Source of the DNA: an uncultured virus (IMG/VR IMGVR_UViG_3300030101_003309)
Lineage: Duplodnaviria > Heunggongvirae > Uroviricota > Caudoviricetes
DNA length: 64,000 nucleotides
IMG/VR virus record: IMGVR_UViG_3300030101_003309
Location: 1-64,000 of that record
Strand: one strand, 5' to 3'
In this document: in pieces, positions 1 through 58,583 of the stretch
Layout of the letters: each line of letters starts with the position of its first letter
How positions within the stretch are numbered: the first letter of the stretch is position 1
Notes under the pieces: model-generated
The model's database searches: none
The model's input: the letters and a program-made list of their open reading frames with translations, nothing else
Told to the model about the DNA's origin: nothing
Made by a program: the position numbers and the translations under genes

Positions 1-380
1 TTTAATTTCTAAGTGTTCATTCATACTCATTGATAAAAATTTTTTTTTCATAATTAATTTTTAAAGTTTTTATTGTACCATTGTTTCATAGAATTAAGCT
101 TGTACATATATATGTATCTAGCCCATTCATGATATGATTTTATTAGGTGTTTGCCCACTTTTTTTACTTTCATAATTTATTTATATATATTGTTTTTATA
201 TAAGTTATAAGTATCGTTTAATATATCCATCATGTCTGTTTTATGTTTACTTCTTATTAGATTTTTAATTATTCTAACTCTCCATAAAAATCACAACAAT
301 CCTCTCTTAACCATGTAACATAATTATCTATTTTATCATCAATGTCTATTTCTTTAAGTTCTTTTTCTGTTAAATTCATA

Positions 381-674
381 TTATCTATATTTTATTTGTT
401 CTATTTGTATTGTTCCACTATTTATCATATTAAATACTTTATTCCAATTCCCATTGTCCATCTCCCATTCAATATCATCTCTTTTAAATTTAGTTTGAAA
501 ATTACTATAAGCAAATGGAGATGTAAATATTTTATAGTCTCCTTTAATTTTTTTTACACTCCATCTGTATTTGTTATCACACATTACGGACACTACATCA
601 ATTTTTATTTCTCTTGGATTTCCCTCTACCTTTAATGCTGGAGGATCTAATCTTAATTTATGATATAAACTCAT
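381..674 (-). CDS. hypothetical protein
   Basis: 97-aa ORF with A-rich leader, co-oriented with neighbours. Confidence 0.7.
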   Translation of the reverse strand: MSLYHKLRLDPPALKVEGNPREIKIDVVSVMCDNKYRWSVKKIKGDYKIFTSPFAYSNFQTKFKRDDIEWEMDNGNWNKVFNMINSGTIQIEQIKYR

Positions 675-712
675 TTTATTTTATTTTTAGTTAATTTATT
701 TGTTTTAATAAA

Positions 713-786
713 AGAAAGGAGGAATTGTAAATACACACAAAGTATAACCGCTCAGTTATTATATGTTGTTTACTAACCTCCTTTCT
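713..786 (-). ncRNA. structured intergenic element A
   Basis: closing stem AGAAAGGAGG(713-722)/CCTCCTTTCT(777-786) with inner GTAAA/TTTAC and ATAAC/GTTAT stems; strand inferred from flanking genes. Confidence 0.45.
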
Positions 787-792
787 ATATTA

Positions 793-902
793 AGAGTCAG
801 GAACACTTTACGTCAACTTGCTATGCTTAAAGTTTATTTGCAATTAAAACACTTTAATTATGAATTTTATTAATTCTACAAATAGTTGCCCGACCTGACT
901 CT
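793..902 (-). ncRNA. structured intergenic element B
   Basis: closing stem AGAGTCAGG/CCTGACTCT; nested CAACT/AGTTG, TATTTG/CAAATA, AATTAAA/TTTAATT and GAATT/AATTC stems. Confidence 0.5.
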
Positions 903-908
903 ATGTAT

Positions 909-971
909 TAGAGAGAAGTGATAACAGCAAGCTTTATTTATCATTCCGAGATCTCTCGCTCCTTCTCTCTA
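909..971 (-). ncRNA. structured intergenic element C
   Basis: closing stem TAGAGAGAAG/CTTCTCTCTA; inner TGATAA/TTATCA and CGAG/CTCG hairpins (three-way junction). Confidence 0.45.
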
Positions 972-1355
972 TCGGGTAGCTAACCCTTTAGTTTTTAAGT
1001 TTTTAAAAACATTACCTAAAGTATTTGTTTTGAACTTTGCTTTATGTTTTGTCAAAGCATTTATTACTCTGTAATATTTTTTAATATATTCTCTACGCTT
1101 AGATTTGTAGTGATCTGCACTAGACCATCTAACACGTTTCATTAGTTCATTGTAAGTAGGTAATGTACGTGTAACACCACTAAGATATGTGATGGTAAGC
1201 TTTGCTTTATCTACATGTTTAATAATCCAGTCTGCATTTGCTCTTCTGAACATTTTGTGAGCAATATCATACTTAGATATTTCATTGTTAAACAATTTCT
1301 TTTTCAATTGTTTGTAATAGTTTGGTGACTTGAAGTCAGTGATTTCTTTTTGCAT
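969..1355 (-). CDS. hypothetical basic protein
   Basis: 128-aa ORF. Confidence 0.75.
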   Translation of the reverse strand: MQKEITDFKSPNYYKQLKKKLFNNEISKYDIAHKMFRRANADWIIKHVDKAKLTITYLSGVTRTLPTYNELMKRVRWSSADHYKSKRREYIKKYYRVINALTKHKAKFKTNTLGNVFKNLKTKGLATR

Positions 1356-1389
1356 AATAAAAGTATTTTGATTAGTAATTATAAAGTTG

Positions 1390-1415
1390 AAAAAAAAGAG
1401 CCACTAGGACTCTTT
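1390..1415 (-). terminator. intrinsic terminator
   Basis: minus-strand hairpin AAAGAG/CTCTTT overlapping the stop of 1404..1649, followed by a T tract. Confidence 0.55.
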
Positions 1416-1649
1416 GGTTTCTGGCTCTTCAACTGACGGAGTTAGTGCCGTAAAGATTGAAAAGAAGACACCTGCAATAGCTGCAGTAGCCATACCGCTG
1501 AACGTGCCAATAAATAGCAATGGCATAAGAACGGTAAATATAATGTCCCAGAATGTTTGTGTTTTAACCAGTCTACGCCTACCAAGGGCTTTGTACAAGA
1601 TAATGTAGTAGCCAATGGCAGCGAAGAATGATATACCTAGAATACCCAT
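1404..1649 (-). CDS. small membrane protein
   Basis: 2-3 hydrophobic segments, acidic tail. Confidence 0.75.
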   Translation of the reverse strand: MGILGISFFAAIGYYIILYKALGRRRLVKTQTFWDIIFTVLMPLLFIGTFSGMATAAIAGVFFSIFTALTPSVEEPETKES

Positions 1650-1957
1650 TAGAATGGTAAATCTTTTATTAAGGTATTTGTATTACCTGCGTATTCTTCT
1701 GCAGGTTTTTTAACAGCTTGTGGTTTAAAATCATTAAGTATAGGTGTATGTGTTAGTTTGTTTTCACCTATTGTTTTGTTAGGTATAAGCTTTAGATTAA
1801 CCCATTTAGAACCTTTTTTGTCTTCTACAAAATTAGATTTCATAAATTGAACAAAGTCATTTGCTTTAATAGACAAGTTAATAATTTTAGTACCTGAGTT
1901 GAACGTGTGTTCTTTAACAAACATACCGTTTGCTAGTGTGTTTACTGATTTTTGCAT
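1649..1957 (-). CDS. putative ssDNA-binding-like protein
   Basis: beta-rich 102 aa ending in KDLPF, like an SSB C-terminal tail. Confidence 0.5.
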   Translation of the reverse strand: MQKSVNTLANGMFVKEHTFNSGTKIINLSIKANDFVQFMKSNFVEDKKGSKWVNLKLIPNKTIGENKLTHTPILNDFKPQAVKKPAEEYAGNTNTLIKDLPF

Positions 1958-1998
1958 GATTTAATTATTTAATGTTAATATTTATTGTTAAGTTGAAA

Positions 1999-2125
1999 AA
2001 CGAGGTCGGGCAGGTGTGGTTCTACTAGCACTTAGCTTTTCAGCACCTCTAGTTTTTGCTTTATCCTGCCGTTTGTATCGTGGTATTTTAAATTGTACCT
2101 AATACGTTACCACCCTAACCTCGTT
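1999..2125 (-). ncRNA. structured intergenic element D
   Basis: minus strand: AACGAGGT/ACCTCGTT, GTGGTA/TACCAC, GGCAGG/CCTGCC, ACTAG/CTAGT and a GCT-GAAA-AGC GNRA loop; GC-rich relative to flanks. Confidence 0.65.
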
Positions 2126-2131
2126 GAAAAA

Positions 2132-2223
2132 AGAAACAGCACCGTCATGACTGACCTACTATCATAGTAGATTTACGGGGAATTCACGGGCAAGATTATC
2201 ATATGCTAATCTCTACTGTTTCT
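2132..2223 (-). ncRNA. structured intergenic element E
   Basis: AGAAACAG/CTGTTTCT closing stem; AGATTA/TAATCT, CCGT/ACGG and CTACT/AGTAG inner stems. Confidence 0.55.
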
Positions 2224-2236
2224 ATAAATATAATGC

Positions 2237-2500
2237 CTAATATGGCACTCCAAATTGTTCATGATCTGTTTGAAAGCAGGTATTCCAATCAATATGTGGT
2301 AACATATCGTACATATCTATTTCTGCTTGTACTTTAGCACGTTGTTCTAATACGTGTAAAGGTGTAATGTCGTATGATGTGTAAGACTTTACATCATCAA
2401 CATTGTGTACAGTTGTACACTTTGTACATTCTACCAGTTTTTGTGATAGAATAATTGCATGTTCATTGCCACATGAACAGTTGATTCCTATTGTTTCCAT
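2237..2500 (-). CDS. putative zinc-ribbon protein
   Basis: CSC...CTKC in N-terminal half. Confidence 0.65.
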   Translation of the reverse strand: METIGINCSCGNEHAIILSQKLVECTKCTTVHNVDDVKSYTSYDITPLHVLEQRAKVQAEIDMYDMLPHIDWNTCFQTDHEQFGVPY

Positions 2501-2856
2501 AGTAATTGTTTTAGTTAATATATTATTATCTATTATTAAGTTGTAAAAATTAGTCAGCTAAATATATATAGTGAATAATTATTTTATAAAAAACTGTGTA
2601 CTATACTTGACAATGTAAAATAAAATGTATAACTTCGCACACATAATAGTTAGTTATTAGTTTAATCAGCTAAATATAATTACAAGTATATTATATATTG
2701 TTTATAACTAATATAAAAACAATAACTGATTGATTATCAATAACTTAAGTAGTTTATTAGCATTAATATAGTAAATATTAGTGTAATATTAGGGTTTTTA
2801 GACTACATCTTATTGTCACATAAATACGCAATATTTAGTATTTATTATACATAAAT

Positions 2857-2886
2857 AAAAAAAAAGAAGACTATTTGTCTCCTTTC
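2857..2886 (-). terminator. intrinsic terminator
   Basis: minus-strand AAGGAGAC/GTCTTCTT stem plus T tract at the stop of 2871..3035. Confidence 0.55.
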
Positions 2887-3035
2887 TTAGATTTAGGCAT
2901 AGCATTTTGTATAGATTCTGCAGTTTCTGGGCTATACTTTTTAATCATAACCCATACAAATACAATTAATACAACGTATAAGAATAGTTTTGCAAATGCT
3001 AGTAGTACAGTTAGTATAATGAATAGTGTGTCCAT
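2871..3035 (-). CDS. 54-aa single-pass membrane protein (absent from the supplied ORF track)
   Basis: manual translation MDTLFIILTVLLAFAKLFLYVVLIVFVWVMIKKYSPETAESIQNAMPKSKKGDK; terminator at stop. Confidence 0.7.
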   Translation of the reverse strand: MDTLFIILTVLLAFAKLFLYVVLIVFVWVMIKKYSPETAESIQNAMPKSKKGDK

Positions 3036-3190
3036 AATAAATAGTTTAAGTGAATAAATATACTGTCAATAAAAAAGTCTGTAAAAAAAACAGAAAAGTA
3101 AAAAGAAGGGTAGGGTAGTAAAAAAATAGAGATGGCAAGGGGGTAGTAAGCATATAGTATCCCTTTCTCAAAAACATAAAATATTTTTTT

Positions 3191-3198
3191 TATCTTTG
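3191..3198 (+). promoter_or_regulatory. Bacteroidota -7 promoter box
   Basis: TATCTTTG (TAnnTTTG) upstream of 3227. Confidence 0.6.
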
Positions 3199-3226
3199 TA
3201 GTTATTAATAATACAACTACCACATC

Positions 3227-4672
3227 ATGACTGAAGAACAAAATCTTGCAGATCTATTTGCTAACCTCAATCAAATATCAGCAAACACAATACTAAGAGA
3301 AAGAACTGGAGGTGGTAAAGGCGGTAGCGCTATGCCATTAGAAGGTAATCAAGATCCAAACCCTCTTATAAAGTTCAATCCATTCTTAGGCAAGAACGTT
3401 ACTTCTTTTCAAGAAGGTGGTTCTATGAGACCTCCCACATTGCCTAGTAATTTTAATATGGATCTCAAAAGACTACCAACTGCTAGGTTACCATTTACAT
3501 TTCAAAAACCTTATATTGACCCTAAAATACGAGAAACATTTGGTAGTGTAATAAGAAAAAGAAGAAAAGGCACCCCTGTGACACAAGAAGAACAGGATAC
3601 TTTAAAAAGTGTATTTCCAAATGGTTTTACCACAGCAAAAAAAATTATGGCTAAAGGCGGTAAAAACGTCACGCCTACACAAGACGAAATAAATAAAGTA
3701 GCTGCTATGGGTAGAAATGGTGATACTAGACTAGCTCATGTTACACCACAAGAAGAAAGAATGTTAAAGGCTATGGGTGGATCTGGTACTATAAATCCAT
3801 ACACTGGTATGCCTGAATATTTCTTAGGAGGGTTTTTTAGTTCTCTTTTTGGTGCTATTGATAATGTTTTAGGTGGAGCACAAGATGTTGTTGGTGGTGC
3901 AATAACAGGAGTTGGTGATGTGGTAAATGAAGGTATTTCAACTGGAACAAATCTTGCAGGTGATCTTATTGATGCAACAGGACAAACTGTAAGTAATGTA
4001 GGTGGACAGGTAACAAATGTACTAAATCCTTTTTTTGATCCAATATTTGACACTGTGCAAGATGCAGGAGCACCAATATTTGACGCTGCAGGAAACTTAG
4101 TACAAGAAGCAGGAGGTGCTGTATCAAATGTTGCTAACATGGCATCTCAGGGTTTTGCTGATGTCACAAAAGGTGCTGGTTTTCAGACCATGGGTCTTTT
4201 ACAAGATGTAGATGAAGGAGTACGTAACTTCTTAGCTAATTTATTTGGAGGTAGTGGCATGCAAGAAATAGATCTTGGTGCTGGAGCAGGTAGAGCAGAC
4301 ATAAAAAGAGGAGCAAAACAAAAAGGAGGAGAGGTAGTATCAGGCGTACAATCAAGAAACAGAGATAAAGCCTTAGCCAATATAAGCAAAACAGAAAAAG
4401 CTAGTTTAGGTACAGGAGACTTTGTATCGCCAAAAGAAAACCCATATATTACACCTAATGTTGAGGTTGAGTTGGACTACGCTGCACAAGGTATGAAAAT
4501 GCCAGATTATAATATGGGAGGTTTATTTACAAAACAAGCAAATCAAGCTATAGCCATGGACCAATTATCTGCGTTAACTAATCGCATGTCAAGAAAATCT
4601 GCAAAAATGGAAAAAGGAGGAAAGACAAAAAAAGTTATGAAACGTAATTTTACCAAAGGAGGTCGTTTCTAA
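3227..4672 (+). CDS. putative internal virion/ejection protein
   Basis: GRNGDTRLAHVTPQE...GGSGTINPYTGMPEY motif recalled from phage virion proteins, Gly-rich amphipathic region, repeated xxGG motifs. Confidence 0.55.
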   Translation: MTEEQNLADLFANLNQISANTILRERTGGGKGGSAMPLEGNQDPNPLIKFNPFLGKNVTSFQEGGSMRPPTLPSNFNMDLKRLPTARLPFTFQKPYIDPKIRETFGSVIRKRRKGTPVTQEEQDTLKSVFPNGFTTAKKIMAKGGKNVTPTQDEINKVAAMGRNGDTRLAHVTPQEERMLKAMGGSGTINPYTGMPEYFLGGFFSSLFGAIDNVLGGAQDVVGGAITGVGDVVNEGISTGTNLAGDLIDATGQTVSNVGGQVTNVLNPFFDPIFDTVQDAGAPIFDAAGNLVQEAGGAVSNVANMASQGFADVTKGAGFQTMGLLQDVDEGVRNFLANLFGGSGMQEIDLGAGAGRADIKRGAKQKGGEVVSGVQSRNRDKALANISKTEKASLGTGDFVSPKENPYITPNVEVELDYAAQGMKMPDYNMGGLFTKQANQAIAMDQLSALTNRMSRKSAKMEKGGKTKKVMKRNFTKGGRF

Positions 4673-5352
4673 TGGACGAAATAGGATTAGAAGAATTAAT
4701 AGAAATTATTATCACAGATAAAGGTGGTACCCCACAACAGTACTACGATTTGATGGATTATATAGCATTTCACGAAACAGGTGCAGAACAAAGAATGAAA
4801 GCTGATGCTGTTCAAATAACTGATGATGGAAGTAAAGATGGACAAGGTAAGGGATTGTTTATGTTTGAGACAGGTTACAAAAAAGGAGCTAATTCAGCTA
4901 TCAATCGTACAGTTGATTATTTTCAAAGTAAAAATATAGAATTACCTGCCTGGTTGAGAAAGGCAAGTTTAGCTAGTAAAGAAACTAAAAGCTTTGATGT
5001 AAGAAAACTTAACGCAGATCAACAAAAAATGTTATTTTTGGGTAATCACAGAATGCACCCAGACGCAAATTTTAGCAAGGTATGGTCAGGAGAGGAGTCA
5101 ATAGCAGACTTTTGGTTAAAATACCACTGGGCAGGATCTAAAGACCCGCAAGCCAAATACGATTTGTTTAATAGCAATATAACTTTGAAAGATTCTTTAG
5201 ACACCGTCAAAGCAAAAGAAGAAGAATTATTATACAAAAAAAATATGGCCCCTTTTCTATCAGATTCTAATAATGTAGATAAATTTAGTAATTTTACCAA
5301 AATATTAAATAAAATATTTGGAAAAACTTCATCATTAATAAACAAGAAATGA
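4672..5352 (+). CDS. putative lysozyme-fold protein
   Basis: IAFHETG (candidate catalytic Glu) followed by GKGLFMF. Confidence 0.45.
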   Translation: MDEIGLEELIEIIITDKGGTPQQYYDLMDYIAFHETGAEQRMKADAVQITDDGSKDGQGKGLFMFETGYKKGANSAINRTVDYFQSKNIELPAWLRKASLASKETKSFDVRKLNADQQKMLFLGNHRMHPDANFSKVWSGEESIADFWLKYHWAGSKDPQAKYDLFNSNITLKDSLDTVKAKEEELLYKKNMAPFLSDSNNVDKFSNFTKILNKIFGKTSSLINKK

Positions 5353-5618
5353 AAGAATTGGACGAAAATATGGGTAAAATATATGTAGAGAATGATTTCT
5401 ATTATTTAGAAAAAGTATATACTTGTATGGAGGAGATGATGATTGAAGAACCAGAGGTAAAGAAAAGGGCAAAAAAACATAATTTTAAAATTGTATCTTG
5501 TAAATGGTATATAGAAAAAAACCCATTTCATCATATAGAAAAAATTTTAAACGAAACAAAAAAAGAAATAGATAAGAATAGATATAGGTTCAAATTAAAA
5601 CTTACGTATAAAAAATAA
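5349..5618 (+). CDS. hypothetical protein
   Basis: 89-aa ORF coupled to neighbours by overlapping start/stop. Confidence 0.7.
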   Translation: MKELDENMGKIYVENDFYYLEKVYTCMEEMMIEEPEVKKRAKKHNFKIVSCKWYIEKNPFHHIEKILNETKKEIDKNRYRFKLKLTYKK

Positions 5619-6151
5619 TGTATTTATTAAAATTAAATAAAAAAGGCGATATATTTAAAGACGATGATGGCGTTACTGCCGTACCTGAGTTTTATTCACT
5701 TATCCGTAAGGAAAAGTTCGGGCCTACGGCCCTCAAATGGGTTGCGCTAGTCTACGACTACGAAAGCCCATACAGACATTACAGTGAAAATGAAAGAAAA
5801 AAAGCAGTGTCAAAAGATTTATACGATACTTATACTTGGAAAGGATGTAATGATGCAACTTTAAAAGCAGCAGCAGATAAATACAATGAGTTACAGTTTG
5901 ATCCACTTGATGAACAATTAATAGCCTTTAATAATAAAATTAATCAGTTTACAAACCTTATAGATAAAATGCACCTTGATGAAGAGAATGCAGAAATGCT
6001 GCAAAAACTTATGATCGGTGTAGAAAAAATGTTAAAAACAAGACAAACACTACTGGACGCAATAGATAGGAGAGGAGAAAGAAAGAAGATAGTTGGAAAT
6101 AAAGGACTATCATTTTTAGAAAGAAGAAAAGAAATAAAAGAATTAAATTAA
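5618..6151 (+). CDS. hypothetical protein, terminase small subunit candidate
   Basis: helical 177 aa with coiled-coil C-terminus upstream of TerL; function is positional inference only. Confidence 0.4.
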   Translation: MYLLKLNKKGDIFKDDDGVTAVPEFYSLIRKEKFGPTALKWVALVYDYESPYRHYSENERKKAVSKDLYDTYTWKGCNDATLKAAADKYNELQFDPLDEQLIAFNNKINQFTNLIDKMHLDEENAEMLQKLMIGVEKMLKTRQTLLDAIDRRGERKKIVGNKGLSFLERRKEIKELN

Positions 6152-6161
6152 ATAAATAGTT

Positions 6162-6347
6162 ATGCCAAAAGATGCGTGTTATCACAAAGTAGTAAGTAGG
6201 TATGGTCCAAAAACTTCAGCATATAGGAGTGGAGCCATGGCCAAATGTAGAAAAGTTGGAGCAGCCAACTGGGGAAATAAAAGTAAAAAGAAAGGTGCTT
6301 CTGGAATGAAGTACAATTGTGGAGGTAGATATAAACAACACGATTAA
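6162..6347 (+). CDS. small basic protein
   Basis: DACYHKV..SAY.SGA..KCRKVGAANWGNK motif recalled from marine phage proteins; ends YKQHD. Confidence 0.75.
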   Translation: MPKDACYHKVVSRYGPKTSAYRSGAMAKCRKVGAANWGNKSKKKGASGMKYNCGGRYKQHD

Positions 6348-6348
6348 T

Positions 6349-6606
6349 ATGGCTGTTAGAAAAACAAAAAAAGGTTTAGCTCTTAAAAGATGGTTCAAAG
6401 AAGATTGGAGAACACCATCTGGCGAAAAGGACTATAGTAAGGGTGAAAACACTTTTAGACCTACAAAAAAAATATCAAAAGATACGCCAAAAACTTGGTC
6501 ACAATTATCAGCTGGTGAAAAACGTGCAGCTGCAAGAGAAAAAAACAGAAAAGGACGTGTAAGCAGGTATAAGAAAGGAGGTAAATTTTATAAACAACAC
6601 GATTAA
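6349..6606 (+). CDS. small basic protein (DUF5872-like)
   Basis: LKRWFKEDW...RPTKKISKDTPKT; start moved to ATG 6349; ends YKQHD. Confidence 0.7.
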   Translation: MAVRKTKKGLALKRWFKEDWRTPSGEKDYSKGENTFRPTKKISKDTPKTWSQLSAGEKRAAAREKNRKGRVSRYKKGGKFYKQHD

Positions 6607-6622
6607 TTAAAAATTAAAAAAA

Positions 6623-7087
6623 ATGATGAAAAAAAAGAAAATGTACAAAAAAGGTGGTAAGGCAAAACCATTCAAGCCGCACATGATGTACGATCCTAAA
6701 TCAGGAAAAGGATTTAAAGCCAACACAATGGCAGATCACAAACGAATGGATAAGATGGGTTACACGCATTCTAAACCAAAAGCCGCTTATGGAATGAAAA
6801 TGAAAAAAATGGCTATGGGTGGAAAAAACTTAAAAGCGGTAGATAGTAAGAAAAATCCAGGATTAGCAAAACTTCCTACAGACGTGAGAAATAACATGGG
6901 TTATATGATGATGGGCGGTAAAGTTAAGATTAAAAAAGCTCCAGGAGGAATGAAAATGGGCATGAAAAATAAAATGATGAACTATGCTGGTGGTGGTAAA
7001 ATGCTAAACGGTATGTCCATGCAAAAAGCTAATAAAGGCATGAAAATGAAGTATGGTATGGGCGGATCTTACAGACAGCTTGACTAA
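6623..7087 (+). CDS. Lys/Met/Gly-rich basic protein
   Basis: low complexity, about 8 xxG[GM]K-type repeats; ends YRQLD. Confidence 0.75.
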   Translation: MMKKKKMYKKGGKAKPFKPHMMYDPKSGKGFKANTMADHKRMDKMGYTHSKPKAAYGMKMKKMAMGGKNLKAVDSKKNPGLAKLPTDVRNNMGYMMMGGKVKIKKAPGGMKMGMKNKMMNYAGGGKMLNGMSMQKANKGMKMKYGMGGSYRQLD

Positions 7088-7425
7088 TGGCAACACCTGC
7101 TTGGCAAAGAAAAGAAGGTAAAAGTAAATCTGGCGGCTTAAATAAAAAAGGGGTTGAGTCATATAGAAAGGCAAACCCAGGAAGTAAATTACAAACCGCA
7201 GTAACAACTAAACCTTCTAAATTAAAAAAAGGTTCTAAGGCTTCAAAGCGTAGAAAGTCTTTTTGCGCAAGAATGAAAGGAATGAAAAAGCGATTAACCT
7301 CAGCTAAAACAGCTAGAGATCCTAATTCAAGAATTAATAAGTCTTTGCGTAAATGGAATTGTGCTCATGGCTGTAAAATGCCAACTAGACCAGTTTCAAG
7401 AACTTTTTATAGACAGTTAGATTAA
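7087..7425 (+). CDS. small basic protein (DUF6321-like)
   Basis: AWQRKEGK..GGLN...RRKSFCARM...SRINKSLRKWNC; ends YRQLD. Confidence 0.7.
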   Translation: MATPAWQRKEGKSKSGGLNKKGVESYRKANPGSKLQTAVTTKPSKLKKGSKASKRRKSFCARMKGMKKRLTSAKTARDPNSRINKSLRKWNCAHGCKMPTRPVSRTFYRQLD

Positions 7426-7643
7426 TGGCTAAACAACCTAAGTATACATTGCAATACTTATACGACCGCTACAAAAAAAAATATAAAGAGGTTGATATGA
7501 AAAAAGCAGATGAATACAACGAGTTGGCTATAAAATTGCATGGAGTAGATCTTAGAGATAGATTTCATGCAAGCTTGGAGGCAAAAGAACAAAGAGCTGG
7601 ACCTTATGGTCTTGGTAAAATGAAAAGAGTAAAATATGGGTAA
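7425..7643 (+). CDS. hypothetical protein
   Basis: 72-aa ORF overlapping the TerL start. Confidence 0.65.
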   Translation: MAKQPKYTLQYLYDRYKKKYKEVDMKKADEYNELAIKLHGVDLRDRFHASLEAKEQRAGPYGLGKMKRVKYG

Positions 7644-9453
7644 AATTAAATTTGATCCGCAAAAATATAGACCTGTACCTAATAATGGTCATCCAGAACT
7701 TAACCCAGATTCTGTTGCTTATCAAGAATATTGGGCACGTGAGACTCAAAGGTGTATAGATGGTTTCAAACCAAAAGGTATGAAAAAAATATCGGGCAAA
7801 TATTATTTTTATCTTAATTATTACAAGATATTAGGTAACGATGGTACAAGCGGAAACCGTAAAACACTCATACATCCATGGTATAGATCTATGGATCACG
7901 AATATTTTGACACTATTGAGGTTTGTAAAGATGAAGGTAAAGGTATGATAGTTATAAAAGCCAGAGATAAAGGATTTTCCTATATGAACTCTGGTGCGGT
8001 TGCACACGAGTATACTTTCTTCCCTTTTAACGATGTTGGTGTAGCAGCAGGACTACAAGCTACAGCAGACGCTTTCTTTGACAAAACAAAAAAAGGATTA
8101 AATGGAATACACCCTAATTTTAAGCATTCAGTGTTAAAAGATACCGATGGTATCATGCGTTCTGGATACAAACAAAAAAATAAGGATGGAAAATGGGAAA
8201 TAGGAGGTTATCAATCCACTATTATATGTAGAACAATGGACAATCCAGAAGTATTTAAGGGAGAAAGGGTCTCTCTTATGATTTTTGAAGAAGCTGGAGA
8301 GTTCAAAAAGCTAAAAAATGCCTATATGTCGTCTAAAGCATGTTTTATGGACGGTGATTTACAGTTTGGAGTGCCTATTGTAGGTGGAACAGGTGGTGAT
8401 ATATCAAAAGCTAGTAAAGATTTTATGGATATGTATTATAGTTCAGAAGCATATAACCTAATACCTGTATTTATACCAGCTTCAAAGGCATATTATGGGT
8501 TTTTTGACATACAAACAGGAAAAGAAGATGAAGAAGGCGCAAAACAGAAGCTAATATCTGACAGAGAAGATATACAAAGCTCTGGTGACAACGAAGCGTA
8601 CAATTTACACATACAAAACTACCCACTTACAATAGAAGAGGCATTTTTGAACACGCATTCTGCAAGATTTGATATATCCTTGCTTAACGCACAAAGATCA
8701 AGAATACTTTCTAGTAAAGATCATAGAAGTCAGATACAAAGAGGGTATTTAGATTGGGAATTAGGTGAGCAGGACCCTGTAGTAAGGTGGAGGCCTGACC
8801 CTAACGGTCCATACAAAATATTATCACACCCAAAACCAGAATATAAAAATTTAGACATAGGAGGCATTGACTCTTATGATCAAGATAAAGCTGGAGCGTC
8901 AGAATCTTTGGGTAGTGCAATAATTTATCGTAGATTTGCAAATACCAATATGTCAAGTGATTACGTAGTGGCTGAATATACGGATAGACCTGAAAAAAAA
9001 GAAGATTTTTGGGACGGTTGTCTTAAATTAGCAGTATATTACAACGCAAAAATGTTGGTTGAGTATACGAAAATAGGTATTTTAGATTATTTTAAGCGTA
9101 TGAATGCCTTGAAGTATCTAAAAGAAAAACCAGAGAGCGCACACAACCCTGGCACAAAAACAAGAAACAGGTATGGCGTGCATATGAACAAACAAGTAAA
9201 AGCATTATTAGAGGATCTAATAGATGATTACTTGAGGGAAAGCGCAGAGGACATTTGGTTTTTAGATCTTATTGATGAGTTAGCAAATTATGGTTTACAA
9301 AACACAGACCGTGCTATGGCTTTCGGTTTGTGCCTAATTCACAATATAGACAATTATAGAATGCAGGTTAGAGAAAAAGAAGAAGATATAGTAGACATAG
9401 GACTAAGATATTATAAAATGGGGTATAACGGATTACCTCAACAAATAAATTAA
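7636..9453 (+). CDS. terL: terminase large subunit
   Basis: Walker A-like KARDKGFS, Walker B LMIFEEAG, GGTGG coupling motif, nuclease GGIDSYD and C-terminal DRAMA. Confidence 0.92.
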   Translation: MGKIKFDPQKYRPVPNNGHPELNPDSVAYQEYWARETQRCIDGFKPKGMKKISGKYYFYLNYYKILGNDGTSGNRKTLIHPWYRSMDHEYFDTIEVCKDEGKGMIVIKARDKGFSYMNSGAVAHEYTFFPFNDVGVAAGLQATADAFFDKTKKGLNGIHPNFKHSVLKDTDGIMRSGYKQKNKDGKWEIGGYQSTIICRTMDNPEVFKGERVSLMIFEEAGEFKKLKNAYMSSKACFMDGDLQFGVPIVGGTGGDISKASKDFMDMYYSSEAYNLIPVFIPASKAYYGFFDIQTGKEDEEGAKQKLISDREDIQSSGDNEAYNLHIQNYPLTIEEAFLNTHSARFDISLLNAQRSRILSSKDHRSQIQRGYLDWELGEQDPVVRWRPDPNGPYKILSHPKPEYKNLDIGGIDSYDQDKAGASESLGSAIIYRRFANTNMSSDYVVAEYTDRPEKKEDFWDGCLKLAVYYNAKMLVEYTKIGILDYFKRMNALKYLKEKPESAHNPGTKTRNRYGVHMNKQVKALLEDLIDDYLRESAEDIWFLDLIDELANYGLQNTDRAMAFGLCLIHNIDNYRMQVREKEEDIVDIGLRYYKMGYNGLPQQIN

Positions 9454-57319: not shown

Positions 57320-58125
57320 AATATATCTTCTGTCATTATGTGAATAGTTCGTTTTGATTTTTTGTCCAAGTAATCAAATCCTTGACCTGGCCAATAATTA
57401 TTATCTAAACAGTATTTGTATATTTCTAGATCTCTATTGTATAGTTCTCTTCCTCTATCTATTAGATCATCACCTAACTGCACAATACTTATACTATACG
57501 GTTTAGTTTTTTCTACCGCTACTATATAATATTCATCTGCTTTGACAGCATCCATATAAAATGCTGCTTGTTTGTGATAGTTATATCTTTTGATAGCTTT
57601 AGCAAAACCATAGTAAGATGTATCTTTAGTAGTTTTTAGGTCTACAATAATATTTCTTTCTTTATCAAATACGTCTAGCATACCTTTGCAATTTACATCA
57701 TATTCTTCATTATGCCAAACAACTATATGTTCTTTTTCTCCATTAGATAATAGCTGTACAGCATCACTATCTTGAAATAATTTGCTTGTTATCTCCTGTA
57801 TAGTATCATGATCTTCTTGTGATAATAAAGTTTTGAACATATGTTTGTTAGTAAATGCTTCAAAATCTTCTTTACCCTGCTTAGTTCTTTTGTCAAATTT
57901 AGGCATAACTACATAATGTTTGCTGTATTCTTCAGGCTGTAAAACTTGCATATGTAAAGCAGATCCAAATTTCATAGCTGCAGAAGCAGGCTGTGGATTT
58001 TGTATCATGTGTTTAAAATATTCAGGCGATTTACCTGTTAAATTATTCAGCATACTATTTGTTACATGCTCTGTATCAATATAATAGCTGTCGTGATCAA
58101 TATTGTGATTATTAATTAATTTCAT
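57316..58125 (-). CDS. PD-(D/E)XK exonuclease, RecE/ExoVIII-like
   Basis: FGSALH..VLQP, CKGMLD...IVDLKTT, YHKQAAFY, AVEK..PY. Confidence 0.85.
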   Translation of the reverse strand: MKLINNHNIDHDSYYIDTEHVTNSMLNNLTGKSPEYFKHMIQNPQPASAAMKFGSALHMQVLQPEEYSKHYVVMPKFDKRTKQGKEDFEAFTNKHMFKTLLSQEDHDTIQEITSKLFQDSDAVQLLSNGEKEHIVVWHNEEYDVNCKGMLDVFDKERNIIVDLKTTKDTSYYGFAKAIKRYNYHKQAAFYMDAVKADEYYIVAVEKTKPYSISIVQLGDDLIDRGRELYNRDLEIYKYCLDNNYWPGQGFDYLDKKSKRTIHIMTEDIL

Positions 58126-58150
58126 ATATTTTATTTTAAAGACATCAAGA

Positions 58151-58166
58151 CCCTACCGAAGTAGGG
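58151..58166 (-). promoter_or_regulatory. C(UUCG)G hairpin in the exonuclease leader
   Basis: minus strand CCCTAC-TTCG-GTAGGG. Confidence 0.5.
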
Positions 58167-58216
58167 CCCTAATGAATCAAAACAAAAACCATGTGAACAT
58201 GGATAAGAAAGCAGTA

Positions 58217-58224
58217 CAAAAGTA
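58217..58224 (-). promoter_or_regulatory. Bacteroidota -7 promoter box
   Basis: minus strand TACTTTTG. Confidence 0.5.
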
Positions 58225-58244
58225 CTAAATATATTCTTTGCTCC

Positions 58245-58583
58245 CTATTCTTTCTCTTTTTTGTTTTGAACTTTCTGTTTTTCTTTTAATCTTTCTTGTA
58301 TATCTTTCTCTAGACGATCATCTATCTCTTGCATTCTTTTTAGAATTTTATCTGATTCTGGTATTTGCTCACAATATTCATTCAAACTTTTTCTGAAACT
58401 TTCTACTTCGTTTTTGGAAAATTTGCCTGATGAAGTATAATCTTTATGTACCCATGTTAATAAAGCTACTTCATGTGATTTTAATGCTTCTGACATAGAT
58501 TTTAGTGTTTCATTGATTTGTTTTTCTACTTTATAGGTTTTACCCATAACTTTAATTTCAATTTTTTCAGTTTTTGTTGTCAT
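58245..58583 (-). CDS. hypothetical protein
   Basis: 112-aa helical ORF. Confidence 0.7.
   Translation of the reverse strand: MTTKTEKIEIKVMGKTYKVEKQINETLKSMSEALKSHEVALLTWVHKDYTSSGKFSKNEVESFRKSLNEYCEQIPESDKILKRMQEIDDRLEKDIQERLKEKQKVQNKKEKE

What the first reader, a model, noticed from the sequence alone, without database searches (positions are those of the whole stretch)
1999..2223. Second tandem pair of multibranch RNAs (D, E) with a GNRA loop and a repeated loop motif
Seen: D (127 nt) has five compatible stems on the minus strand, including GCT-GAAA-AGC. E (92 nt) has four stems, and both of its terminal hairpins contain TATGATA. Each element is followed on the minus strand by a T tract plus CAAC, and both are GC-rich islands in AT-rich DNA. 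I cannot assign either to tRNA, a ribozyme or a riboswitch class. Inference: novel phage ncRNAs; the twin loops of E suggest a bivalent protein-binding decoy.
Basis: partly seen in the sequence, partly recalled or inferred. Interest (0 to 1): 0.78.

Follow-up and report, generated by a model that had tools for sequence, protein, structure and literature searches.

The report
New phage RNA family plus companion
Element D is one copy of a previously uncatalogued, strongly conserved folded RNA found once per genome in several distantly related marine phages, and element E is a rarer companion module; what they do is still unknown.

Summary
D (1999-2125, minus strand) is real. A 19-base probe from its centre found 10 other viral contigs. 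They share 52 invariant positions in three junction strands around two hypervariable hairpins. Covariation supports the helices: 9 of 21 pairs change on both sides, and 0 of 500 shuffles reach this. No Rfam 15 family matches, and GenBank phages hold no copy. Each of 5 near-complete phages carries one copy, and their terminases are only 25-27% identical to the window's.

E (2132-2223) has one partial homologue, which also sits beside a D-type element and lacks E's first hairpin. The "twin TATGATA loops" idea is therefore not supported.

D+E form a 231-base insertion that is missing from close relatives. It lies in a hypervariable slot that in other relatives holds other stem-closed RNAs, small ORFs or a twister-like ribozyme. 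"T tract + CAAC" is the start of a repeated leader motif.

Folding energies alone are unremarkable. Function is unknown. I favour a stable early-transcribed RNA with a conserved binding or catalytic core.

The parts
2001..2231 (-). 231-nt insertion (8-nt linker + E + T-tract/CAAC + D), present or absent between near-identical phages
   Evidence: DNA contigs of two runs from different studies join 2000 to 2232 with only ATGG between. The empty 52-nt slot is seen in L003, L026 and L047.
2132..2223 (-). Element E: 92 nt, 10-bp closing helix AGAAACAGUA/UGCUGUUUCU, two hairpins, a C-rich unpaired stretch
   Evidence: Folds. A single-sequence CM finds only itself in 416 kb of related DNA. One partial homologue, L082:357-429(-).
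2123..2131 (-). T5 + CAAC after E; the last C pairs in D's closing helix
1999..2125 (-). Element D: the shortest member (125-127 nt) of a conserved three-way-junction RNA family
2105..2123 (-). D strand S1 (CGAGGTTAGGGTGGTAACG): 5' arm of P1 plus an invariant junction strand
   Evidence: Invariant columns in A9. P1 covaries.
2078..2104 (-). D variable hairpin V1
   Evidence: Unalignable between members, but closed by covarying pairs (AU/CG/GC/UA at one position).
2056..2077 (-). D strand S2 (TACAAACGGCAGGATAAAGCAA): invariant junction strand, used as the probe
   Evidence: 10 exact hits in viral contigs. Invariant in A9.
2024..2055 (-).
   Evidence: All 4 closing pairs covary. The interior differs in every lineage.
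2001..2023 (-). D strand S3 (AGAACCACACCTGCCCGACCTCG): invariant strand plus 3' arm of P1
   Evidence: It can pair with S1 (RNAalifold) or with S2 (GGCAGG/CCUGCC). Both partners are invariant.
1958..2000 (-). Conserved leader: T5 + CAACTTAACAATA... up to the ATG of ORF102
   Evidence: This is the only part of the gap that is conserved in relatives. The motif occurs 2-5 times per genome, 38-45 nt before an ATG.
2232..2249 (-). Terminator-like hairpin over the stop codon of ORF87; its T tract is weakened here by the insertion
   Evidence: Compare GGCATTCCATTTTTT in the empty slots.
2237..2500 (-). Upstream gene, 87 aa, Cys-rich, no family match
1649..1957 (-). Downstream gene, 102 aa, no family match; AF2 model unusable (pLDDT 50)

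Best explanation
D is a copy of a conserved, single-copy structured RNA carried by diverse marine tailed phages.

Architecture of D:
- A closing helix, P1.
- Two hairpins (V1, V2) whose sequence and length are free.
- About 50 invariant nucleotides in the three strands that join them.
- These strands can form further pairings, possibly a pseudoknot.

E is a smaller, rarer stem-closed module that rides next to D-type elements. The two entered this phage together as a 231-nt cassette. The site is an accessory slot of the leftward early/DNA-metabolism operon. Entry was probably by recombination at the repeated terminator/leader sequences that bound every module.

Inferred: both are transcribed with the early genes. 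D works at the RNA level through its invariant junction, most likely as a stable small RNA whose ends are locked by P1 (usually followed by a short U tract) and whose core binds a conserved protein or small partner.

Shown: family membership, structure, copy number, the insertion, and absence from Rfam.

Inferred: transcription as a discrete RNA, the partner and any trans action.
For: Family: 10 exact hits to D's central 19-mer. Alignment A9 has 52 invariant columns, all in three blocks.

Structure: 92.4% of cells are paired, 9 of 21 pairs have double changes, 0 of 500 shuffles reach this, and slid controls fall to 36-50% paired with 2 or fewer such pairs. RNAalifold independently finds 9 of 24 pairs compensatory. 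L082 and L084 are identical over the whole element except at the two positions of one P1 pair (G/G against A/T).

Strand: G-U pairs occur, and every copy is co-oriented with its neighbouring genes.

Copy number: one copy in each of 5 of 5 near-complete genomes.

Breadth: TerL is 25-27% identical to the window's. The copies always sit among small same-strand ORFs near a ligase or exonuclease gene.

Cassette: the joint 2000->2232 appears in two DNA runs. The slot length ranges from 52 to 609 nt in the 14 of 49 loci where both flanking genes were found. E' is likewise an insertion of about 80 nt in L082 relative to L084.

RNA: a metatranscriptome contig, 100% identical, covers 2066-2225 and bridges E's T tract into D.

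Precedent: crAss-like phage phi14:2 transcribes early intergenic RNAs of unknown function above most genes (passages read).
Against: - Folding energy of D and E is ordinary for this genome (3-4th percentile, with optimally framed targets). Fixed 110-nt windows over the region rank 727th or worse of 8772.
- The RNA evidence is one low-depth contig (depth 4) in a library that may contain DNA. Contigs cannot show ends or strand.
- Only 10 distinct D sequences are known. All came from one probe that required the core to be exact, so invariance of S2 is partly by selection of the sample.
- 2 of 10 members lack a U tract after P1.
- The junction pairings (S3 with S1 or with S2; GUGGU with ACCAC) never vary and so are untested.
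- E rests on a single homologue.
- No partner is identified.
Confidence: 0.55

Rival explanations
1. D is a new class of self-cleaving ribozyme (E perhaps an accessory). It cuts the early polycistronic transcript at gene boundaries, doing the job that a twister ribozyme does in the same slot of related phages.
For: Twister-P1-like hits lie 140-165 nt upstream of the ORF102 homologue in 2 of 34 loci scanned (L061 44.7 bits, E 9e-7; L045 44.5 bits). D has a small size, an invariant junction, free peripheral stems and a possible pseudoknot. In 6 of 10 members it starts 0-7 nt after a stop codon, and in L083 it ends 3 nt before a tRNA-Asp. The review PMC6765202 (passages read) states that bacterial and phage self-cleaving ribozymes cluster near each other and near certain genes, and that the exact motif seems unimportant.
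Against: No ribozyme family matches D or its relatives even at E<=10 / E<=1. No twister or hammerhead lies within 800 nt of the 9 other D copies. The two twister hits are one element seen twice and are below Rfam's gathering score. Most conserved orphan RNAs are not ribozymes.
Confidence: 0.15
2. D and E are cis-acting 3'-end elements: elaborate intrinsic terminators, attenuators or stability structures that set read-through into the next gene. D may switch between two pairings of its S3 strand.
For: Both replace or extend the simple hairpin + T tract + CAAC found in empty slots and after ORF81. P1 is followed by 3 or more U in about 7 of 10 D members. S3 has two mutually exclusive invariant partners. 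Other slot elements (families C and G) are also stem-closed with covarying closing helices followed by T tracts.
Against: 50 invariant junction nucleotides are far more than a terminator needs. What follows D differs between members: protein genes of different families, a tRNA or another RNA. That argues against a riboswitch for one pathway. The RNA contig reads through E's T tract. Phages with the empty slot do without them.
Confidence: 0.15
3. D/E are selfish or neutral DNA: a MITE- or IS200-type passenger (D has 8/10 imperfect terminal inverted repeats and is flanked by TTTTTCAAC on both sides) or recombination debris.
For: Presence/absence between near-identical genomes. Direct repeat TTTTTCAAC on both sides of D. 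No ORF.
Against: There is one copy per genome in 5 of 5 carriers and in the window's genome. A terminal-repeat pattern scan of 185,579 prokaryote genomes gave 5 hits, all chance matches in 63-72% GC DNA. Compensatory changes with G-U pairs and an invariant core point to selection on an RNA. The flanking repeat is explained by the leader motif.
Confidence: 0.07
4. One reading: E is a bivalent decoy that presents two identical TATGATA loops to a dimeric protein.
For: TATGATA occurs twice in E. The second hairpin and the linker before it are conserved in E' (CGTAAATCT.CTATGA.AGTAG).
Against: E' lacks the first hairpin (a 20-nt gap). The two copies sit in different structural contexts. 17% of shuffles give a repeated 7-mer.
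Confidence: 0.04

Closest known systems
Ribozyme-associated intergenic RNAs of phages (twister, hammerhead, pistol, hatchet and the RAGATH candidates; review PMC6765202, passages read; the RAGATH naming is recalled)
   Same: Small structured RNAs sit in phage gene arrays, in the same places as self-cleaving ribozymes. Here a twister-like element occupies the same slot in relatives. They share a conserved core with free peripheral stems.
   Different: No sequence or structure match to any of these families. No cleavage has been shown. No ribozyme lies next to the other D copies.
PeSL promoter-terminator cassettes of T4-type phages (PMC4122927 abstract read; PMC2839356 search listing only)
   Same: Short repeated terminator/leader motifs bound accessory modules and coincide with indel endpoints between close relatives.
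   Different: In T4 the cargo is small protein genes. Here much of the cargo is structured RNA. Promoter activity of the CAACTTAAYAATA motif is untested, and the motif is unrelated in sequence.
Early long intergenic transcripts of crAss-like Cellulophaga phage phi14:2 (bioRxiv 10.1101/2020.03.07.982082, passages read)
   Same: A marine Bacteroidota-type phage (the window's TerL is about 30% identical to crAss-like and Flavobacterium phage terminases) with non-coding early-region RNAs of unknown function.
   Different: The sequences are not homologous (CMs R1-R3 find nothing in phi14:2 1-9000). The phi14:2 region contains a tmRNA-like gene. D/E are much shorter.
Small stable RNAs (species 1 and 2) in the T4 tRNA gene cluster (recalled, no call)
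   Same: Phage-encoded stable RNAs of about 120-140 nt of unknown function, next to tRNA genes. One D copy abuts a tRNA-Asp.
   Different: The window's phage has no tRNA.
Intrinsic (Rho-independent) terminators
   Same: A G+C-containing helix directly followed by a T tract on the coding strand of an operon.
   Different: The helix encloses 75-180 nt of branched, partly invariant RNA instead of a 3-8-nt loop. The consensus terminator scan does not call either element.

Membership tests
Any Rfam 15 family (4227 models) | Covariance-model score at or near the gathering threshold | tested here: not met
   Window at gathering: 0 matches. Positions 1-8000 and 1960-2240 at E<=10: only noise (snoR60 15.7 bits, RMST_4 11.8 bits). 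Nine other D loci at E<=1: only a tRNA.
tRNA / tmRNA | Cloverleaf or tRNA-like domain recognised by ARAGORN | tested here: not met
   0 genes in the window. In 9 D loci, only a tRNA-Asp next to, not within, the D copy of L083.
Twister ribozyme (RF03160 and clan) | Conserved core and double pseudoknot scored by the CM | tested here: not met
   No hit on D/E. Hits exist in the same slot of L061 and L045 only.
Hammerhead / pistol / hatchet / twister-sister / HDV-like | Family CM match | tested here: not met
   None at E<=10 on 1960-2240 or at E<=1 on 9 relatives.
Self-cleaving ribozyme (any class) | Site-specific self-scission in vitro | not testable with these tools
   Needs a bench assay.
Riboswitch | Conserved association with downstream genes of one pathway | tested here: not met
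   What follows D differs: ORF102 here, an unrelated coiled-coil-like ORF, another ORF, a tRNA-Asp, or a further structured RNA.
Intrinsic terminator | Stem, loop of 3-8 nt, then T tract | tested here: inconclusive
   T tracts are present after both elements. The stems are long-range, so the consensus scan does not list them. Termination was not assayed.
MITE / IS200-type passenger | Multiple dispersed copies per genome | tested here: not met
   One copy in G000 and in each of G006, G007, G008, G010 and G011. The terminal-repeat pattern gave only chance hits in prokaryote genomes.
PeSL-like shuffling cassette | Repeated composite terminator/leader motif at the borders of indels between close relatives | tested here: met
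   Promoter activity was not tested.
D family (defined here) | S1-V1-S2-V2-S3 order with the invariant strands, and P1, V1 and V2 helices | tested here: met
   The window's D scores 114.2 bits against model R3. As a seed it matches by construction, but it shares all 52 invariant columns.

The most novel reading that the evidence does not exclude
The D family is a new catalytic or ligand-binding RNA class, most attractively a new self-cleaving ribozyme. Marine phages would exchange it as a cassette and use it interchangeably with twister ribozymes at the same gene boundary. E-type modules would be optional partners.
Probability: 0.15. Interest if true: 0.85.

Novelty: new variant of a known kind. 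Interest (0 to 1): 0.6.

Why it matters
Conserved orphan RNAs with large invariant junctions have repeatedly turned out to be ribozymes, riboswitches or RNP cores. This one has several useful properties:
- It is compact (125-201 nt), with only about 60 nt of fixed sequence.
- It is found in phages whose terminases are barely related.
- It moves as a cassette.
- It sits where relatives carry a twister ribozyme.

It gives a directly testable candidate for the long-open question of what structured RNAs and self-cleaving ribozymes do in phage early regions. It also shows that accessory "moron" slots can carry RNA cargo as well as protein genes.

Tried and rejected
**Probes and sequence searches**
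- Exact probes: four of five D/E probes found nothing in viral contigs.
- Relatives: blastn of D/E found nothing in 9 first relatives, in 5 whole relative records, or in GenBank phages (24 records, all short chance matches inside unrelated genes). It also found nothing in 50 further loci apart from L025, which is identical.
- GenBank phages: a typical family member, L084, also has no match there.
- First 6 kb: no blastn match in GenBank phages.
- Literature: core strings searched in the paper library gave 0 papers.

**Model searches**
- Single-sequence CMs for E and D found only themselves in 416 kb.
- Family model R3 found no further member in 431 kb beyond the seeds. A 16-bit hit in L020 (E 0.13) was dropped as noise before the pair count.

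**Counts and expression**
- Genome-wide count of 8-bp stems followed by a T tract: 7 against 3.4 +/- 1.8 in shuffles, which is not decisive. An earlier version of that scan missed E and D by construction.
- RNA run X16 covered only the flanking genes (1437-1744), not D/E.

**Protein and ORF checks**
- AF2 of ORF102 gave pLDDT 50, so no fold search was run.
- Pfam and PHROGs on 8 neighbouring ORFs gave nothing useful.
- Coding potential: no frame longer than 36 codons on the minus strand.

**Not done**
- No search of metagenome contigs or raw reads with the family model.
- No R-scape.
- bioRxiv supplements of the phi14:2 paper (transcript tables) could not be seen and may bear on the comparison.

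Full report
**What is at the coordinates**

The window is a 65.9-kb IMG/VR virus record, 98% complete. It is a tailed phage. Its terminase is about 30% identical to those of crAss-like, Flavobacterium and Cellulophaga phages.

The finding lies on the minus strand in a 279-nt ORF-free gap (1958-2236). The gap separates an 87-aa gene (2237-2500) from a 102-aa gene (1649-1957). Both are near the start of the leftward early/DNA-metabolism operon.

E is 2223->2132 and D is 2125->1999. Each is closed by a long-range helix and followed by TTTTTCAAC. ARAGORN finds no tRNA or tmRNA. Rfam 15 finds nothing at gathering thresholds and only noise at E<=10.

**Is it more than chance?**

From one sequence, the case is only modest.
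- Shuffle z-scores are -2.0 to -2.7.
- Against all same-length windows of this genome, corrected for composition, E is at the 3.3rd percentile and D at the 3.7th. A neighbouring element (C, 713-786) is at the 0.05th.
- Fixed 110-nt windows over D/E rank no better than 727 of 8772.
- D's interior is ambiguous.
- The repeated TATGATA in E is within chance: 17% of shuffles contain a repeated 7-mer.
- Collectively, the five stem-closed elements that tile this gap and the gap at 636-968 exceed expectation. Perfect inverted repeats of 8 bp or more number 5 against 1.15 expected (P 0.008). Those of 9 bp or more number 3 against 0.31 (P 0.003).

**The slot**

Relatives were found through the two flanking proteins. 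In them, only the last 43 nt of the gap are conserved. This is a leader, T-tract + CAACTTAAYAATA, that occurs 2-5 times per genome. It lies 38-45 nt before the ATG of the first leftward genes.

Between the two genes the content is hypervariable. Both genes could be located in 14 of 49 loci. In those the slot measures:
- 52 nt (empty, 3 loci);
- 137-140, 204, 208, 243, 278, 279, 281, 373, 405 or 609 nt.

The slot holds other stem-closed, T-tract-terminated elements, small ORFs, or mixtures of both.
- Two common element families have closing helices that covary: C in the neighbouring gap and G in this slot.
- In 2 of 34 loci scanned at an E-value threshold, the slot holds a twister-P1-like ribozyme (44.7 and 44.5 bits, E about 9e-7, below Rfam's gathering score of 67.2). 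This is the same element seen twice.

DNA contigs from two sequencing runs of different studies join 2000 directly to 2232, with four other bases between. D+E is therefore a 231-nt insertion relative to otherwise 90-99% identical phages. Its ends lie in the upstream terminator hairpin and in the T-tract/CAAC. An identical copy of the filled slot exists in an independent metagenome contig, L025.

**D has a family**

Four exact probes from D and E found nothing. The fifth, D's central 19-mer, hit 10 viral contigs of 6-79 kb.

Aligned with D, they show three blocks that hold all 52 invariant columns:
- S1: CGAGGUNNGGGUGGUAAYG
- S2: UACAAACGGCAGGAUAAAGC
- S3: AGAACCACACCUGCCCNACCUCG

The blocks are separated by two segments, V1 and V2. 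These are unalignable and range from about 27 to about 100 nt. V1 and V2 are reassorted between members: L088 has the V1 of L085 and the V2 of L083.

On an alignment fitted to a model with P1, the bases of V1 and V2, and GGCAGG/CCUGCC:
- 92.4% of cells pair.
- 9 of 21 pairs show changes on both sides, in 22 cells.
- 0 of 500 shuffles reach these values.
- Sliding the partners drops pairing to 36-50%, with 2 or fewer such pairs.

The alignment leans towards the model. RNAalifold, predicting on its own, also finds 9 of 24 pairs compensatory. L082 and L084 are identical across the element except at the two positions of one P1 pair. G-U pairs and co-orientation with the surrounding genes fix the strand.

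The invariant strands offer mutually exclusive pairings:
- S3 with S1 or S3 with S2;
- a crossing GUGGU:ACCAC pairing.

None of these positions varies, so they remain untested.

No Rfam family matches any member. GenBank phages hold no copy. The core strings are absent from the paper library.

**Distribution and context of the family**

Each of 5 of 5 near-complete carrier genomes has exactly one copy. Their terminases are 25-27% identical to the window's, so these are distant phages.

The element always lies on the coding strand among small ORFs, within 2-3 kb of a DNA ligase or exonuclease gene. This matches the window's own replication and recombination module.

In 6 of 10 members it begins 0-7 nt after a stop codon. 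About 7 of 10 have 3 or more U after P1. What follows varies: unrelated protein genes, a tRNA-Asp 3 nt away in L083, or a further long structured RNA.

A short DNA contig in run X2 carries D's first 38 nt, with 1 mismatch, behind a different upstream sequence. That upstream sequence resembles the context of the L082/L084 group. This suggests recent exchange between phage groups.

**E**

E's single-sequence model finds only itself in 416 kb of related DNA. One relative exists: E' in L082. It is a 73-nt stem-closed element 7 nt downstream of that phage's D copy. It shares the segment CGUAAAUCU.CUAUGA.AGUAG and parts of both closing arms, but it lacks E's first hairpin.

The motif is absent from the other 9 carrier records. 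E' is itself an insertion of about 80 nt relative to L084, bounded by a repeated ...CCUCG.

E-type modules are thus rare optional neighbours of D-type elements (2 cases). The twin-loop feature is not conserved.

**Expression**

One metatranscriptome contig is 163 nt long, 100% identical and at depth 4.

The contig bridges E's T tract. It cannot show ends, strand or level, and the library may hold DNA.

For comparison, the crAss-like phage phi14:2 transcribes early intergenic RNAs of unknown function above most genes (passages read).

**Interpretation**

Shown:
- D is a member of a conserved, covarying, single-copy phage RNA family that is not in Rfam 15.
- D+E is a cassette in a hypervariable slot.
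- "T tract + CAAC" belongs to a repeated leader motif.

Inferred:
- The cassette is transcribed with the early genes.
- D acts as an RNA through its invariant junction.

I favour a stable small RNA with a conserved partner (0.55 for the whole statement, of which the family claim alone is about 0.9). The rivals are:
- a new self-cleaving ribozyme (0.15), suggested by the twister in the same slot and by the review's account of ribozyme neighbourhoods;
- a cis terminator or attenuator, possibly switching (0.15);
- selfish or neutral DNA (0.07), which single-copy status and chance-only pattern hits in prokaryote genomes argue against;

**Comparison with the known**

- The shuffling resembles T4-type PeSL cassettes (abstract read), but with RNA cargo.
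- The setting resembles ribozyme-associated phage RNAs, but membership in every tested family failed.
- D is therefore a new RNA family of a familiar general kind. E is an orphan companion.

Noticed in passing
window 713-786 (-), 793-902 (-), 910-970 (-): Three more stem-closed elements (C, B, A) tile the gap 636-968. C is at the 0.05th percentile of folding energy for this genome and is conserved in 17 loci, with 3 compensatory pairs in its closing helix. Its arms read AGAAAGGAGG / CCTCCTTTCT. From memory, that is a Shine-Dalgarno-like strand paired to a copy of the 3' end of 16S rRNA.
   Followed up: partly
L061:1281-1335 (+), L045:621-674 (+): A twister-P1-like ribozyme (about 44.6 bits, E about 9e-7, below the gathering score of 67.2) lies inside a 600-700-nt non-coding array upstream of the ORF102 homologue. 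Relative to the consensus, C->A in GGUCAC and G->U in GAGUG look like a compensated pseudoknot pair.
   Followed up: partly
L075 (Cellulophaga phage phi14:2, NC_021806) 4031-4502 (+): A tmRNA-like gene (46 bits against a gathering score of 47, E 3.6e-16) lies inside the long intergenic region that the phi14:2 paper reports as a highly transcribed early RNA of unknown function.
   Followed up: no
L081, L085, L089, L090, directly downstream of their D copies: A conserved structured region of about 250-300 nt ends in a T-arm-like GAGGTTCGATTCCTC plus an acceptor-like strand. It contains CTGACGAG and GGAAAC strings. ARAGORN and Rfam call nothing.
   Followed up: no
L030, L033, L034, L038, L045, L056 (slot): Family F: the same closing helix AGAATAGT.../...ACTATTCT + T tract encloses quite different interiors of 65, about 140 and about 178 nt. 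It looks as if cargo is swapped inside a fixed terminator stem.
   Followed up: no
window 58078-58247 (-): This is the most stable region of the genome relative to composition (residual z down to -5.8). It lies in a 119-nt gap after the exonuclease gene and includes GGGCCCTACTTCGGTAGGGTC.
   Followed up: no
window 1649-1957 (-) and 2237-2500 (-): Both flanking small proteins, and their homologues, end in ...PF (DLPF, GVPF). From memory this resembles the C-terminal tip of bacterial SSB. No family match was found, and the AF2 model is unusable.
   Followed up: partly
window 2560-2700 (-): TATATTTAGCTGA occurs twice upstream of the first leader motif and again in relative L004. It may be the operon's promoter.
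   Followed up: no
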